From Candidatus Zixiibacteriota bacterium (lineage in GTDB: Bacteria > Zixibacteria > MSB-5A5 > JAABVY01), in assembly GCA_014728145.1 (NCBI GenBank), contig WJMC01000062.1, positions 558-64,557 on the forward strand: a DNA stretch of 64,000 nucleotides, read 5' to 3'. Numbering within the stretch: position 1 is the stretch's first letter; every line of letters begins with the position of its first letter. Of the stretch, positions 3,001-9,000 are shown in pieces. Made by a program: the position numbers.

Positions 3001-6000
3001 CTGCGGAAGAGTCAGCTCCGGAGCGCTGTTCAGATCGACAGTAACGGAAACCGTATCGACCGCCTGCGATCCGCAGATCTGGTCAGTGGCAGTGATAACG
3101 ATATCGTAAGTACCATCCTGGTCAGCCATCAGGCAGACTTCTCCGGTCTGCTCATCATACGTAGCCGGGGGCGTCACATCTATCGTGACATCATCGCCCT
3201 CGTTGGCGTCAGTGGCGGAAACCGGGAAGCAAATCTCGGTCGGCTCGCAAATCAATGTATCGAAATCAGGCACAGTCACCAGCTCGGGCGGGAAATTGAC
3301 CGTCACGCCGATCGTGATCGAGTCACGCGGACAGGGTGGCGGAACCAAACCCGGACGCGCACCTTCGGTCAGAGCGCAACAGGAATCAGTCACCTTCAGG
3401 ACAAAAGTGTAACTGCCGTTTTCAACATAATCCGGCAGGAAGCAGAATGACTGTGTGGCCGGATTGAAGGAACCGTCGCCCTGTAAAAATTCGATATCGA
3501 GAGGATCGCCGTCAGGATCGAATATATCTATCGGTACACAGATCGAGTCGTAATCGCACAGGAGCGTATCGAAATCATCTGGCAAATCGATCGTGGGACG
3601 ATCATTAATTTCATAATTTATATATACTGTGTCTATGTCGAATGCGCCGGAAAGGTCAGTAGCTTTGAACACAAACATGTAAGTCGAATCAAGACCCCAG
3701 GGTAAGAAGCAGTGCTCGGTAAAGATATAGTTGTATTCATCGACCGGCTGGAAAACGCCTGTGCCCTCCAGCATTTCGACAGTAATCATCTCAGCATCAC
3801 CATTGGGATCATAAGCTTCGATCGGGATGCAGACGGAGTCTTCGTAACAGACATTTATATTGATCTCACCGGGGACTAACAAAACAGGAGGCGCGTTTTC
3901 GAAACGTACCCTGATGATATGATCATTGAAGTCACCGTCACCGCCATCCTTTAGATCTTCAAACGCAATGATATATTCATGTAATTGAGCTGTCGCGAAA
4001 ATTTTTGCATGGTCGTACTCATCGACATTGGCTGACAACTGCGTATACCATGACTCAGGACCTATCAGGTTGGGGGTTATATAGAACCCGATCGAATCGC
4101 TCGCGGTGATGGTAAAAGTGACCGAGTCGCCGGGAGCGCTCGAAGATGAAAACAACTCTGTTTTCATGGTCGTATCGGACGCGTCGTACCAGCCGGATAC
4201 AGCCGAAGAAAACGAACCCGAAACCTTTTCCAGCACCATGGAAACATTGGTTCCGTTTACAGCCGGGAAAGATTCCCATCCCAGCTCATCAGTTGCTACA
4301 TTAATAGTATAACCGAGACTGTCCAGAATTTCCTGCAGTGTCGGCTCGCCAGGGGCGAGAGAAATTAGCGAATCGCGAATATCGAGATCGCCGGGTCCTG
4401 CCATAGTAGAGGGAGCCAATAGAAGTAAACATGCAAGTGGCAGGAAAAATAGGGTAAGAAAACTACATTTCCGGCACATAGATTTGCCTCCTTAAAGTTA
4501 CTGTTTCCCGGGTGGAATACAGCAATTCATATACCTGAAAAAATGAAAATCGTTTACAACATTAAAACAATTACGACAAGTACTTGATATCAGAAGAGTT
4601 AACGAGCTTCCCCCTCAGGATTGCTCTTAGGACACCCCTTCCAGACATAATAGGATATGTAAGTCAACTATATGTTTTTCTACACACACAAAAATATACC
4701 GCACCGCTTTAATATAAAGCCAAACTCGAGATTGTCAAGCAATATCACATACATATCAACGTCTTAACACAATTTTAACTCGCAGGATTTGCGCCTTTGA
4801 GAGCCGATTTGCAGCGCGATGTGCAGAATCTGAACAGATTTTAGTTTAGCTGTTTTAATGCAGTCTGTTTGACACTTCCTGCACGAGATTGCATACTTGT
4901 GCGGGACTTCTCAGTAGTCGTCGCGTGGTTTCAGCTTCGAGGGATAAAAACGGGGCTTGCCTTCTTCTAAAACTATATGTTCCAGCAGCTCATCTCTTAT
5001 CTCAGGCGCGAGCTTATCCCCTTTCAGGAGGCTGTTGAGCTTTATGCCGTGGACTACCATAACTTCATCAGACAGACCGTGAGTTTTAATGTATTGCAGG
5101 AATTCCTCTTTCTCCTTCTCGTTTTTTGAAACCGTATAACGGGCCTTGTAAGTCGGTTCGCTCTTGATCCTGATTTTGTAGTCACTGCCCCGCAGGACGG
5201 TAGCATTCATCTGCAGGGCGTATAGTTCCAGTTCTTGTTGAAGATGGTCCTTCTCGATTTTCAGCTCTGAAAGAGCCTGCTTTACTTCGATATAGCGGTT
5301 GACCAGCCGGACACCATCCTCCTGTCTAAACTCCCGCGGAGGCAATTCCTCGGTCTTATGTAAATGGACTTTCGCCGGGCAGATCGGATAATAGTCACAC
5401 CAGTCACAGAGCGCGGATTCATTGGGAGGAAGATCATCCCGGTCGACTGCTGATTCTATTTTTTTTATCAAATCCACGGTTTCGACCTTGAGCTCTTCGA
5501 GCTGATCCGGCTTTCTGCTGGAATGGATCTCTTTATCGAAAGTCAGGTAATGCCAGATCAGGTCGACAGACTCAACATCGGTATACATCTGGCTGATCCC
5601 GATCTGATACAACGCCAGCTGGCGATCCTGGTCAAAATACTTTTGCCCCATCAAAGTACCGGCGGTTTTGTAGTCATGGATCCTGTAATGGCCATCCTCG
5701 ATTTCCGAAAGCCTGTCGATGTAACCCTGAAGCTTATAATCGCCGGACTTATCCAGATCGACTACAATCCGTAACTCAAGAGCCAGGGTTTTATCTAACT
5801 CGAAAGGAGCATAGCGCCGGTAATAATCCGTGAGTGATTTTTTACCGCGCTCGAAGTAATTTTCGTATGTTCGACCGGCTTTTACTATATATATATCATC
5901 GGTAAAGTTCTGTTCCCAGCGCCGGGCGAAATCATCCAGAAGTTCCTCTTCCGTCAAAAGCCTGCGATCGATCAAGAGCTTGTACAATTTCTCGAGAGAT

Positions 6001-9000
6001 TCATGACAGCGCGATCCCAGAAAAGCCTCGATCGAGGTTCTCCTGACGATATCCGGTTTTTCGATATATTTGTACTTGAATTGAAGCGGGCAGTTTTCAA
6101 ATGTAGATAAACGGGAATGTGAGTAAATCGTCATTTTCGTCCTGATCGCATTATATTAAAAATCAGCCAAACGGCCAGTCCGCCTGCCAGAAGATAACCA
6201 AGAAGTGACAGTACAGGCAAGCCAAAAAGTGAAACTCCCAGCCCGGTGCTGTTGATCAGCGAGGCCGAGATCAGAACCGCCGCGATAATTAAAGCCAGAG
6301 ACAGCCGTTTAGATGACTGGTACAATTCCTCGGTCAGGTTCTCGAGCCCGCGATGCTGGAACTGCATCACGATCTTTCCCTGCCGAAGCTTTGTAGTAAT
6401 CCGGCGTGCTTCAAATGGCAATGTCGTTAAAAGCTGGCGCAGGTCGCCCAATGCGGTCACCGCGTCCTTGCGAAGGGAACGGACACCCATCTGCTTTTTG
6501 GCCATGCTCTTGATAAACGGCTCAGCCTCAGTTATCAGGTTTATCTCCGGGTCGACCATACGACCGACCTCCTCGGCGGTAATCATAGCTTTGAGAAGCA
6601 ACATGAACGAGGCCGGCAGGTGGATATTGTGTCGATAGAAGATGTCCATCGCGTCCATGCTCAAAGCTCGCATATCCATCTGCCAGAGAGGTATGCGGTG
6701 GTAGCGATAGATGAACTCGGTAATTTCGCTCTCCAAAGTCAGCCGGTCGACATCCTCCGGCACCAGGTTGAAATCCAGAAGCGTTTTAATGATTTTGCGG
6801 GCATCGTAATCTGAAATAGCTGATATCAAGTCAATCAAGAACTCCACCACCGATTCCGAAAGCTGACCGACCATACCGAAATCCAGAAGCGCGATCCGGT
6901 TTTTAGGCAGTACGAAAATATTTCCCGGATGAGGATCGCCGTGGAAAAAACGATCGATAAATATCATCTTGAGAATCGCGCGAAGCCCGTTACGAGCAAC
7001 GATTTTATTGTCGAGACCAAGTTGCTTGAGCTTATCCAGCGATGAAATCTTCGTGCCGTCGATATATTCACAGGTCAATACGCGCGAAGTAGTGAACTTC
7101 CAGCTTATCTGTGGAATGATGATATCTTCACTGTCCTGGAAATTATACTGGAAGATTTCCATGTTGCGTCCCTCGTTGAGGAAATCGGTCTCCCGGCGCG
7201 AGACCTTGGCGAGTTCATCGACCTGACCGCTGGGATCGAACCGTCGTGATTCAGGCACGAACTCCTCGAACAGCCGGGCCATATCACGCAGGATATCCAT
7301 GTCGACTTTCATGGTCTTGTTGACATTGGGGCGCTGTACTTTGACCGCTACCCGCTGGCCATCTTTTAAAGTGGCGACATGGACCTGTGACAGGGAGGCC
7401 GATGCTACCGGTTCGTGTTCGAAAGTTTCGAACACGCTGTCGAGGGAAGCCTTCAACTCGGTCTCTATGATATTTCGCACTTTGCGAAACTCGAAAGGCG
7501 GGACTTCATCCTGGAGCTTGGAAAGTTCGATCACGAGATCGAGCGGTATCAGAAACGGACGGGTCGAAAGTACCTGTCCAAACTTGATGAAGGTCGGTCC
7601 TAGTTCCTCAAGCGCCAGCCTGATCCGGACTGCATAGTTCATCTTGGTCAGCTTCTCGTCTTTTTCAGACAGTCTCCCCCGTCCGAGTTTAAGGCGAGCG
7701 GCGATATTCAATCGTCCCAGAACCTCCCCAAAACCGTATTTAGCCAGAACCTGCACGATCTGGCGATAGCGCTTGAAAAGTTCGAGGCGATGTTTGAGGC
7801 TGTACTGTTTGAACATAGACTGAGTCCCGGTTTATCTATTACTTCGGACGAAAACCGCAGGTTCATTACTGATACGCACAGAGATCATCATTGTTCTGTG
7901 AACAGTTTTAAAATGCGTCCTGCCGGATTGTAAAGCAAACAAAAAAAAGAGAGAGGCAAGCGCCTCTCTCTTTTTTATCGTTATGTCAACCAGATTACTT
8001 CATCAGGACCATTTTGTGGACCTTGGTATACTGACCCACAGTGGCTTTGTAGAAGTAGATACCGGAAGCCATACCCGTAGCATCCCAGGTCACAGTGACA
8101 GTACCAGCATCGTTGTGGCCGGAGAAGCTCTTGACCAGCTGACCACTGACATTGTAGATGTCAATCGACCAGTTGGCAGACTCGGGCAGATCGAGCTGTA
8201 TGTCGGTAGACGGGTTGAACGGGTTCGGATAGTTCGGCTTGGCCGCGAATTCGGTCGGGAGAGCCTTCATGCTGGCGTTGACGTTCAGGTCGGAACCATT
8301 GTAGTCAACGATTTCAGCATGAGTAAGCTGGATGTCGCCATTGACGGCAACATTGAACAGCTTGTTCTCACCTGACGGAACGTAACCGCTACCGTAATCA
8401 TAGACCAGCACACGGAGTTCGCCGTTTTCGTAGTTCGACATAATATCCATGCCGGAAGCCGAGAGAGTCGGCTCGCCAAGCACGTTATCAGCCTGGAACA
8501 CGAACAGGGCGGCACCGATATCGGTACCGGAGCTGGTGTTGACGCTGACGCCATTGATGCTGTTAACAACTCTGACATCAACATTGTTGGCAAACGGAGC
8601 CAGCTTCGGAATCGCGATCTCATCGCCATTGATGACACGAATCAGGTAAACCAGGTCACCCACGGTCAGGACCTTGCCGTCGTTGTTGACGTCAGAGGCC
8701 GCAACCTGTCCGGCAGCATTGATATCGAAGACGGACGGGCCGAAGATGAAGTAGTTGGAATACAGAACCGCGTCGGCGATTTCATGGGCGATACCGTTAA
8801 GGTTCAAGTCGCCACGATCGTCGATGTCTTCGGCGCAAGCAATATCCACACCACCGGCATAGAAGTCGATGAACGACTCAGGGCCAGGTTTGCCAGGATC
8901 AGCCTGATTCTCACAATCGATTCCACCCGGAATCGACTGCCAGCCGGCTATAAACGGATTATCGGCAGGGTCAAGGAGAAGGAACTGATCGTCGGGCTCA

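What the first reader, a model, noticed from the sequence alone, without database searches (positions are those of the whole stretch)
4911..7816. UbiB/ABC1 atypical kinase overlapping (ATGA) a stand-alone Cas4-like Fe-S nuclease with a coiled-coil tail
The kinase stop and the nuclease start share 4 nt, a sign of translational coupling. The downstream protein has the full Cas4/AddB signature: RecB motifs, an N-terminal Cys and C-x2-C-x5-C. No CRISPR array or cas genes are anywhere in the window, and the protein carries an extra coiled-coil C-terminal region of about 150 aa. UbiB-family kinases are normally tied to quinone biosynthesis in aerobes. In an anaerobe with PFOR, a UbiB paired with a DNA nuclease is unexpected and may mark a kinase-regulated nuclease module.
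Basis: partly seen in the sequence, partly recalled or inferred. Interest (0 to 1): 0.5.

Follow-up and report, generated by a model that had tools for sequence, protein, structure and literature searches.

The report
UbiB gene overlapping solo Cas4-like nuclease
A membrane-anchored UbiB-type ATPase gene and a stand-alone iron-sulfur DNA nuclease gene are joined in a two-gene operon that is kept in one Zixibacteria-like lineage only, and nothing found here suggests the two proteins work together.

Summary
On the minus strand a 561-aa UbiB/ABC1 protein (6131..7816) and a 407-aa PD-(D/E)XK nuclease (4911..6134) overlap by ATGA. The nuclease has all RecB motifs and four cluster cysteines (C15, C243-x2-C246-x5-C252). 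The window has no CRISPR array or cas gene.

Two points need correcting. The "coiled-coil tail" is a conserved folded domain: a 36-residue helix plus a small alpha/beta unit. All ~400-aa homologues sampled have it, in bacteria, archaea and actinophage "Cas4 family exonucleases". The protein also fails the Cas4 model cut-offs and belongs to PF12705, which is not CRISPR-linked.

UbiB sits directly upstream in 16 loci (gap -4 to +31 nt). The 13 that were placed in a tree form one clade.
- Outside that clade, 0 of 68 nuclease loci have UbiB.
- Only 2 of 62 UbiB loci with enough downstream sequence have the nuclease.
- A giant surface-protein gene downstream is conserved almost as well (11 of 12 loci).

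I read this as a lineage-specific operon of two unrelated housekeeping genes, not a kinase-regulated nuclease module. It is a new member of known kinds, and interest is low.

The parts
6131..7816 (-). UbiB/ABC1-family atypical kinase-like ATPase, 561 aa, with two C-terminal hydrophobic (transmembrane) segments at about residues 502-556
   Evidence: Pfam ABC1 8.3e-80. TIGR01982 scores 455.1, below its 487.55 cut-off. Motifs K78-F-G-Q81, A138-SASLSQVH, K159, H292-GDPHPGN, D312-FG. Hydropathy.
4911..6134 (-). Stand-alone PD-(D/E)XK (PF12705) Fe-S nuclease, 407 aa
5373..6134 (-). Nuclease domain (residues 1-254), including the four cluster cysteines
4914..5372 (-). Conserved C-terminal domain (residues 255-407): long helix 273-308 plus an alpha/beta subdomain.
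6131..6134 (-). ATGA: the UbiB stop codon (TGA) overlaps the nuclease start codon (ATG)
   Evidence: The same 4-nt overlap occurs in L162, L001 and L002. The other 12 paired loci have gaps of -1 to +31 nt.
6140..6143 (-). AGGA Shine-Dalgarno-like tetranucleotide 5 nt upstream of the nuclease ATG, inside the UbiB 3' end
   Evidence: Read directly from the sequence. Function is inferred.
7943..7976 (-). Terminator-like hairpin (15-bp stem plus T-run) between the upstream 888-aa gene and UbiB. It marks the 5' boundary of the two-gene unit.
   Evidence: consensus scan only.
4711..4738 (-). Promoter-like site (TTGACA-16-TATATT, 11 of 12) in the 431-nt gap between the nuclease and the downstream giant gene. 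It suggests that gene has its own promoter.
   Evidence: consensus scan only.
1..4479 (-). Flank: N-terminal 1,492 aa of a giant Ig/PKD-rich surface protein. The gene runs off the window start. The 59%-identical counterpart in L162 is 1,613 aa with a T9SS sorting tail.
7995..10661 (-). Flank: 888-aa secreted protein with a T9SS C-terminal sorting domain
   Evidence: Por_Secre_tail 8.8e-11.
11231..12241 (-). Flank: YceI-like protein. It is kept in this position only in the closest relatives (L001, L162).

Best explanation
This is a lineage-specific two-gene operon of functionally independent housekeeping genes.

- Gene 1 encodes a membrane-anchored UbiB/ABC1-family ATPase. By analogy with characterised UbiB/COQ8 proteins, it acts on isoprenoid-quinone or related membrane lipids.
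- Gene 2 encodes a member of a very widespread, uncharacterised family of ~400-aa stand-alone nucleases. The family is built on a Cas4/AddB/AdnA-type PD-(D/E)XK domain with a four-cysteine Fe-S cluster, plus a conserved C-terminal helix/alpha-beta domain.
- The nuclease most likely trims or resects DNA ends (metal-dependent ssDNA exo/endonuclease) in chromosomal repair or recombination. Its C-terminal domain probably mediates DNA or partner binding, or oligomerisation.
- The two genes came together once, in the ancestor of one Zixibacteria-like clade. They have stayed co-transcribed and tightly spaced since then, as has the neighbouring giant surface-protein gene.

Shown: gene structures, motifs, folds, and the distribution of the pairing. 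Inferred: co-transcription, the enzymatic activities, and the absence of functional coupling.
For: Gene identities:
-.

Pairing restricted to one clade:
- 12 of 80 genome loci plus the window have the pair, and these form a single clade in an NJ tree.
- The other 68 loci (archaea, many bacterial phyla, a sister Zixibacteria-like clade) have none.

Reverse test:
- The nuclease follows UbiB in 2 of 62 UbiB loci with at least 600 nt downstream.
- No Pfam family follows UbiB in more than 2 of 70 loci.
- The commonest UbiB neighbour is a phasin-like ORF upstream, in 21 of 80 loci.

Nuclease neighbours outside the clade:
- No Pfam family occurs in more than 5 of 133 neighbouring genes. No recurrent repair, defence or mobile-element partner appears among the 25 commonest families.

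Local gene order:
- The downstream giant gene is a collinear orthologue in 11 of 12 clade loci, so local gene order is generally conserved.
- Upstream genes differ between subclades.

Tight packing is common in this window:
- A MiaB-like gene overlaps a GAF/response-regulator gene by 20 nt.
- UPF0047 and an MtnA-like gene are 1 nt apart.

UbiB biochemistry:
- UbiB-family proteins are ATPases activated by lipids and phenols, and E. coli UbiB's ATPase activity supports a quinone-precursor decarboxylation step (10.1101/149823; 10.64898/2026.03.05.709815).

Nuclease family background:
- PF12705 Cas4-like nucleases are not CRISPR-associated (PMC5704561).
Against: - All 16 paired loci keep the pair with a gap of no more than 31 nt. 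The nuclease identity to the window protein falls to about 40% across the clade. Selection on co-expression would also produce this.
- The nucleases of this clade share an acidic-aromatic C-terminal tail (…RDDY, …KNEY, …YDENFEG). A comparable tail is seen in at most one of the 68 other loci, L067. It could be a clade-specific docking motif.
- One plant ABC1 protein has reported kinase activity (abstract of PMC8956952), so phospho-regulation is not biochemically excluded.
- Neither protein's activity has been tested.
- Co-occurrence at a distance in genomes lacking the adjacency could not be checked.
Confidence: 0.72

Rival explanations
1. One reading: a functional UbiB-nuclease module. The membrane-anchored UbiB-type kinase/ATPase would regulate, phosphorylate or localise the Fe-S nuclease, for example by tethering DNA-end processing to the membrane or coupling it to quinone or redox state.
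For: - The pair is kept in all 16 clade loci, with a 4-nt overlap or short gap.
- Upstream flanks were reshuffled while the pair stayed together.
- Both proteins keep intact catalytic motifs.
- The clade-specific acidic-aromatic tail on the nuclease coincides with the pairing.
Against: - The pairing is absent from 68 of 68 nuclease loci outside the clade and from 60 of 62 UbiB loci.
- UbiB relatives as close as L082 and L128 (L081, L124) lack the nuclease.
- The unrelated giant gene downstream is conserved almost as well.
- No defence-system model matches the pair.
- Characterised UbiB proteins act on lipids, not proteins (10.1101/149823).
- The tail and the pairing are both features of one clade, so they are not independent evidence.
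Confidence: 0.08
2. The nuclease is a remnant or cargo of a mobile element or prophage, or a stand-alone anti-phage or anti-plasmid nuclease, that happened to land next to UbiB.
For: - The whole protein matches phage exonuclease family phrog_69 (8.7e-31, residues 2-395).
- Gordonia phage 'Cas4 family exonucleases' align over 98% of its length.
- The C-terminal domain is most like those of actinophage PD-(D/E)XK proteins.
Against: - The neighbours in the window and its two closest relative loci carry no integrase, phage or plasmid domain. None is among the commonest neighbour families in the 80 loci.
- The nuclease tree tracks taxonomy at clade level, and local gene order is inherited vertically.
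- No Argonaute or other defence domain is among the commonest neighbour families.
- Phage identity is only 22%.
- GC content is unremarkable.
Confidence: 0.08
3. The nuclease is a true Cas4 that works in trans with a CRISPR-Cas adaptation module elsewhere in the genome.
For: It has the four-cysteine cluster and the RecB motifs. It gives weak hits to Cas4 models.
Against: - It scores below the cut-offs of PF01930 and TIGR00372, and its best family is PF12705.
- That family has no CRISPR-associated branches (PMC5704561).
- The window has no array or cas gene.
- No cas1 or cas2 family is among the commonest neighbour families of the 80 related loci.
- At 407 aa it is about twice the length of Cas4, with an extra domain.
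Confidence: 0.02

Closest known systems
Nuclease domains of AdnA/AdnB and AddB (PF12705, RecB-family Fe-S nucleases of helicase-nuclease end-resection machines)
   Same: - Same motif set (D, D-x-K, QxxxY) and the same four-cysteine arrangement, with one N-terminal Cys and three C-terminal.
   Different: There is no fused or adjacent SF1 helicase. The protein stands alone and carries a ~150-aa C-terminal domain that those enzymes lack.
Phage 'Cas4 family exonuclease' / 'RecB-like exonuclease' of about 400 aa (phrog_69; e.g. Gordonia phage Neoevie gp41, Tsukamurella phage TIN4)
   Same: - Same two-domain architecture over the full length (phrog_69 spans residues 2-395; 98% coverage).
- The C-terminal domain is structurally similar (Foldseek E 3e-5).
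   Different: - Identity is only about 22%.
- The phage genes sit in replication or recombination modules (RusA, sliding clamp).
- This gene sits in a chromosomal context with no phage genes.
CRISPR-associated Cas4 (PF01930/TIGR00372) and solo-Cas4 of archaea
   Different: - It fails both Cas4 model cut-offs.
- It is twice as long.
- It belongs to the PF12705 branch, which Hudaiberdiev et al. 2017 (PMC5704561) found not to be CRISPR-associated.
[quoted passage not shown]
   Different: No Argonaute gene is in the window, and none is among the recurrent neighbours of the 80 related loci. ACE1 is 266 aa and lacks the C-terminal domain.
E. coli UbiB / eukaryotic COQ8 (ADCK3)
   Same: ABC1 domain with the KxGQ, Ala-rich loop, catalytic-loop and DFG motifs, plus C-terminal transmembrane helices as in bacterial UbiB.
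   Different: - It scores below the UbiB equivalog cut-offs: 455 < 487.55 for TIGR01982 and 366 < 667 for NF003404.
- No ubi genes are in the window.
- The host looks anaerobic or facultative (PFOR), so the lipid substrate is probably not ubiquinone.

Membership tests
UbiB/ABC1 atypical kinase family (PF03109) | ABC1 domain above the Pfam gathering score | tested here: met
   267.9 bits against a cut-off of 22.9, covering profile positions 1-243 of 244.
UbiB/ABC1 atypical kinase family (PF03109) | Signature motifs: KxGQ, the Ala-rich loop that replaces the Gly-rich loop, the catalytic Lys, HxDxHPGN and DFG | tested here: met
   K78-F-G-Q81, A138-SASLSQVH146, K159, H292-GDPHPGN299 and D312-F-G314. 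All are invariant in 12 clade orthologues.
Ubiquinone-pathway UbiB (TIGR01982 / NF003404 equivalogs) | Score above the curated equivalog cut-off | tested here: not met
   455.1 < 487.55 and 366.5 < 667.
Ubiquinone-pathway UbiB (TIGR01982 / NF003404 equivalogs) | Genome encodes the ubiquinone pathway (ubiA, ubiD/X, ubiE, ubiG, hydroxylases) | not testable with these tools
   Only 64 kb is available, and no such domain was found in it.
PDDEXK_1 / RecB-AddB-AdnA type Fe-S nuclease (PF12705) | Domain above the gathering score, with motifs II (D), III (D/E-x-K) and QxxxY | tested here: met
   [not shown]
PDDEXK_1 / RecB-AddB-AdnA type Fe-S nuclease (PF12705) | Four cysteines (one N-terminal, C-x2-C-x5-C C-terminal) that ligate an Fe-S cluster | tested here: met
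   C15, C243, C246 and C252 are invariant in 38 sequences. Cluster binding itself was not tested.
PDDEXK_1 / RecB-AddB-AdnA type Fe-S nuclease (PF12705) | Nuclease activity on DNA | not testable with these tools
   Needs biochemistry.
CRISPR-associated Cas4 (PF01930 / TIGR00372) | Score above the curated family cut-offs | tested here: not met
   PF01930 14.4 < 22.7. TIGR00372 36.4 < 65.
CRISPR-associated Cas4 (PF01930 / TIGR00372) | Encoded next to cas1/cas2 or a CRISPR array | tested here: not met
   The window has no array and no cas domains. No cas family is among the commonest neighbour families of the 80 homologous loci.
Phage Cas4-family / RecB-like exonuclease (phrog_69) | Full-length profile match that includes the C-terminal domain | tested here: met
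   8.7e-31, residues 2-395. Gordonia phage homologues align over 98% of the length.
Phage Cas4-family / RecB-like exonuclease (phrog_69) | Located in a phage or prophage genome | tested here: not met
   The flanking genes are T9SS surface proteins, YceI, an MtnA-like gene and pilus genes, with no phage genes. Gene order is conserved chromosomally.
Known kinase- or nuclease-containing defence systems (PADLOC-DB) | Both proteins match components of one described system | tested here: not met
   UbiB gives only weak generic kinase-fold hits to PD-T4-6 (E >= 4.8e-6). The nuclease gives only weak Cas4, DruK and Aga-nuclease hits.

The most novel reading that the evidence does not exclude
In this Zixibacteria-like clade the operon could be a true functional unit. 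The membrane-anchored UbiB-type ATPase/kinase would recruit or regulate the Fe-S nuclease, perhaps through the nuclease's clade-specific acidic-aromatic C-terminal tail. That would place DNA-end processing at the membrane or couple it to quinone or redox status. It would be the first non-lipid client described for a UbiB-family protein.
Probability: 0.07. Interest if true: 0.55.

Novelty: new member of a known kind. Interest (0 to 1): 0.18.

Why it matters
As it stands, this matters little. It is a cautionary example: a 4-nt overlap plus conservation within one lineage is not enough to infer a functional module.

Two side results have modest value.
- The ~400-aa stand-alone PF12705 nuclease is a very widespread family that, as far as the paper searches here showed, has no characterised member. 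It gave more than 2,300 database clusters, and at least 577 stretches in species-representative genomes across archaea and many bacterial phyla.
- Its conserved C-terminal domain has no counterpart in the PDB and is shared with actinophage 'Cas4 family exonucleases'.

Characterising one member would annotate thousands of genes. If the low-probability module reading were true, it would give UbiB-family proteins a first protein client.

Tried and rejected
- **afdb50 fold library.** It was not available. BFVD was used instead. The resemblance to 'Siphovirus Gp157' is weak (E 2.8e-3, TM 0.37), and I do not rely on it.
- **PADLOC** gave no system-level match.
- **Rfam** on the whole window gave no hit.
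- **Tandem and direct repeat scans** found no CRISPR-like array.
- **Literature.** 'COG2887' and 'UbiB + Zixibacteria' returned nothing bearing on this pair. 'Zixibacteria + menaquinone' returned five papers, which I did not read. One query was rejected for its syntax.
- **Conserved partner for the nuclease outside the clade.** BLAST clustering and a Pfam census found none.
- **Conserved downstream partner for UbiB.** None found.
- **Considered and rejected: CRISPR Cas4 acting in trans.** It fails the model cut-offs and its family is not CRISPR-linked.
- **Considered and rejected: prophage remnant.** There are no mobile-element genes nearby, and gene order is inherited vertically.
- **Considered and rejected: the overlap is an artefact of a mis-called start.** The N-terminus MTIYSHSRLS aligns with the start of all homologues.

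
Full report
**What is there**

On the minus strand, ORF 6131..7816 encodes a 561-aa protein and ORF 4911..6134 a 407-aa protein. The upstream stop and the downstream start share ATGA at 6131..6134. An AGGA lies 5 nt before the second ATG. The N-terminus MTIYSHSRLS aligns with the first residues of all homologues, so the start and the overlap are real.

The first protein is a canonical UbiB/ABC1 protein.
- It matches Pfam ABC1 at 8.3e-80.
- It has K78-FGQ, the A138-SASLSQVH loop, K159, H292-GDPHPGN and D312-FG.
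- It has two hydrophobic C-terminal segments at about residues 502-556.
- It scores below the curated cut-offs for the ubiquinone-pathway UbiB equivalogs: 455 < 487.55 and 366 < 667.

The second protein is a PD-(D/E)XK nuclease (PDDEXK_1, 7.6e-29).
- D140, D154-Y-K156, Q172..Y176 and C15/C243/C246/C252 are invariant across 38 homologues.
- It does not reach the Cas4 model cut-offs: PF01930 14.4 < 22.7 and TIGR00372 36.4 < 65.

**The 'coiled-coil tail'**

- AlphaFold2 on a 38-sequence alignment gives a confident model (pLDDT 91.4). The PD-(D/E)XK domain is followed by a 36-residue helix (273-308) and a small alpha/beta subdomain. Modelling residues 255-407 alone gives the same result (pLDDT 90.7).
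- The region is not an add-on. The 120 best database hits are all about 400 aa long. The region is present in all 38 aligned homologues, with G274, V275 and G316 invariant.
- Its best matches among predicted viral structures are about 400-aa PD-(D/E)XK or 'RecB-like exonuclease' proteins of actinophages.
- The phage family phrog_69 ('exonuclease') matches residues 2-395 (8.7e-31). Gordonia phage 'Cas4 family exonucleases' align over 98% of the length at 22% identity. Those phage genes sit in a replication and recombination module.

**Context in the window**

- The pair is flanked by an 888-aa T9SS-sorted protein upstream (7995..10661) and a giant Ig/PKD-rich surface protein downstream (1..4479, running off the window).
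- Further upstream lie a YceI-like gene, an MtnA-like gene and a UPF0047 gene.
- A terminator-like hairpin (7976..7943) separates the pair from the upstream gene. A promoter-like site (4738..4711) lies in the 431-nt gap before the giant gene. The pair therefore looks like a bicistronic unit.
- The rest of the window is ordinary chromosome: type IV pilus genes, PFOR, regulators and peptidases. It has no cas, quinone-pathway or mobile-element domains, no CRISPR-like repeats and no Rfam hits.

**Is the pairing conserved? Nuclease-centred test**

- A scan of species-representative genomes with the nuclease profile found at least 577 encoding stretches, and the 80 best were fetched.
- UbiB lies immediately upstream on the same strand in 12 of these 80. 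All 12 are Zixibacteria-like MAGs, although some carry 'Ignavibacteria' labels.
- The other 68 loci have none. They cover Thermoplasmatota, Methanoperedens, DPANN archaea, Actinomycetota, Omnitrophota, Planctomycetota and other Zixibacteria.
- In an NJ tree the 13 linked nucleases (12 plus the window) form one clade. Its Zixibacteria-like sister clade lacks UbiB.
- An 86%-identical relative (L162) has the same YceI, T9SS protein, UbiB, nuclease and giant gene order.
- Across all 16 paired loci the UbiB-stop to nuclease-start distance is -4 to +31 nt.

**Is the pairing conserved? UbiB-centred test**

- 80 metagenome loci encoding UbiB relatives (32-51% identity) were fetched.
- Of the 62 with at least 600 nt downstream, only L082 and L128 carry the nuclease. 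Equally close UbiBs (L081, L124, L083) are followed by a nucleotidyltransferase, a RadC-like fragment and a PDDEXK_3 protein.
- A Pfam census of the genes following UbiB finds no family in more than 2 of 70.
- The commonest neighbour of these UbiBs is a phasin-like small ORF upstream (21 of 80 loci). This fits a lipid-related role.

**Is the conservation more than local gene order?**

- Within the clade the upstream genes differ between subclades. The giant surface-protein gene downstream of the nuclease is a collinear orthologue (33-64% identity, with alignments of over 1,000 aa in the full-length cases) in 11 of 12 loci.
- A gene with no conceivable link to a nuclease is thus conserved next to it nearly as well as UbiB. 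Adjacency alone therefore does not argue for function.
- Outside the clade, the nuclease's immediate neighbours are a random assortment of housekeeping genes. No Pfam family occurs in more than 5 of 133, and there is no recurrent repair, defence or mobile-element partner.
- In L027 and L004 the UPF0047 and MtnA-like genes sit directly upstream of the nuclease. In the window the YceI, T9SS and UbiB genes lie between them. This hints that UbiB arrived next to an older nuclease locus (inference).
- Tight spacing between unrelated genes is common in this window.

**Interpretation**

The best-supported reading is a lineage-specific operon of two independent housekeeping genes (confidence about 0.7).
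- UbiB-family proteins are ATPases activated by membranes and phenolic lipids. E. coli UbiB's ATPase activity supports a quinone-precursor step (10.1101/149823; 10.64898/2026.03.05.709815). Kinase activity has been reported only for a plant ABC1K (abstract of PMC8956952).
- By homology to AddB, AdnA and Cas4 (established knowledge), the nuclease is most likely a metal-dependent, Fe-S-containing processor of ssDNA or DNA ends, acting in repair or recombination. Its C-terminal domain is of unknown role.
- The absence of cas genes is expected, because the PF12705 branch of Cas4-like nucleases has no CRISPR-associated clades (PMC5704561).

**What keeps the module idea alive at about 7%**

- All 16 clade loci retain the tight junction.
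- A clade-specific acidic-aromatic C-terminal tail on the nuclease (…RDDY, …KNEY, …YDENFEG) has at most one comparable case (L067) among the 68 other loci.
- Both are traits of the same single clade, so they are not independent evidence.

**Limits**

- The tree is a quick NJ tree.
- Taxon labels are those of the records.
- Gene calls in fetched loci are my own longest-ORF calls.
- The promoter and terminator scans are consensus matches only.
- Whole genomes could not be inspected, so quinone pathways and distant co-occurrence remain untested.
- No interaction prediction or experiment was possible.

**Verdict**

This is a new member of known kinds, and interest is low (0.18).

Noticed in passing
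window 4911..4925 (-) (nuclease C-terminus), and the nuclease C-termini in L001, L002, L009, L012, L014, L015, L019, L023, L032, L040, L042, L049: All 13 nucleases of the UbiB-linked clade end in an acidic-aromatic tail (…PRDDY, …KKNEY, …KDYDENFEG, …EEGQYE). The 68 others mostly end in Lys/Arg/Glu-rich tails with no aromatic residue; L067 (…NDNTYDQ) is the closest exception. It may be a short docking motif, but nothing links it to any partner.
   Followed up: partly
window 26681..29786 (-): An 809-aa SbcC/Rad50-like ATPase (AAA_23, AAA_15, SMC_N) is followed after a 10-nt gap by a 221-aa staphylococcal-nuclease-domain protein. This ATPase-plus-nuclease pair looks more like a functional unit than the pair under study.
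   Followed up: no
L027 4201..7200 and L004, compared with window 4911..14123: In two other Zixibacteria-like genomes the UPF0047 and MtnA-like (IF-2B family) genes lie directly upstream of the nuclease. In the window the same two genes are separated from it by YceI, an 888-aa T9SS protein and UbiB. This suggests UbiB was inserted next to an older nuclease locus.
   Followed up: partly
L084 122..448, and 20 other UbiB loci among L081-L160: A phasin-like ORF of about 105 aa lies just upstream of UbiB in 21 of 80 metagenomic UbiB loci, and a DUF6781 protein in 9 of 80. The window's UbiB has neither.
   Followed up: partly
L083 5721..6104; L081 5667..6383; L124 5729..6043: Close UbiB relatives are followed by a small PDDEXK_3 protein, a nucleotidyltransferase and a RadC-like N-terminal fragment respectively. 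The position downstream of UbiB seems to accept varied small genes.
   Followed up: no
window 56632..56818 and 59227..59416: An 85-nt unit occurs twice in tandem at the 3' end of each of two minus-strand genes: the M1 peptidase (56619..58991) and the BACON-domain protein (59196..61505). The copies are 64-78% identical. This is probably a shared two-repeat C-terminal module, possibly dockerin-like, but that was not checked.
   Followed up: no
window 54993..55012: A MiaB-like radical-SAM gene (54993..56282) overlaps a GAF/response-regulator gene (52109..55012, GTG start) by 20 nt. This is another tight junction between apparently unrelated genes.
   Followed up: no
window 17775..19268 (-): A 497-aa ORF inside the PilM/PilN/PilO/secretin cluster has no Pfam match at E <= 1e-5.
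   Followed up: no
window 11231..12241 (-); L001 2..658; L162 28..930: A YceI-like protein (a family I recall as polyisoprenoid-binding; not checked here) is encoded two genes upstream of UbiB in the window and in its two closest relatives only. This is a possible weak lipid-related link to UbiB.
   Followed up: partly
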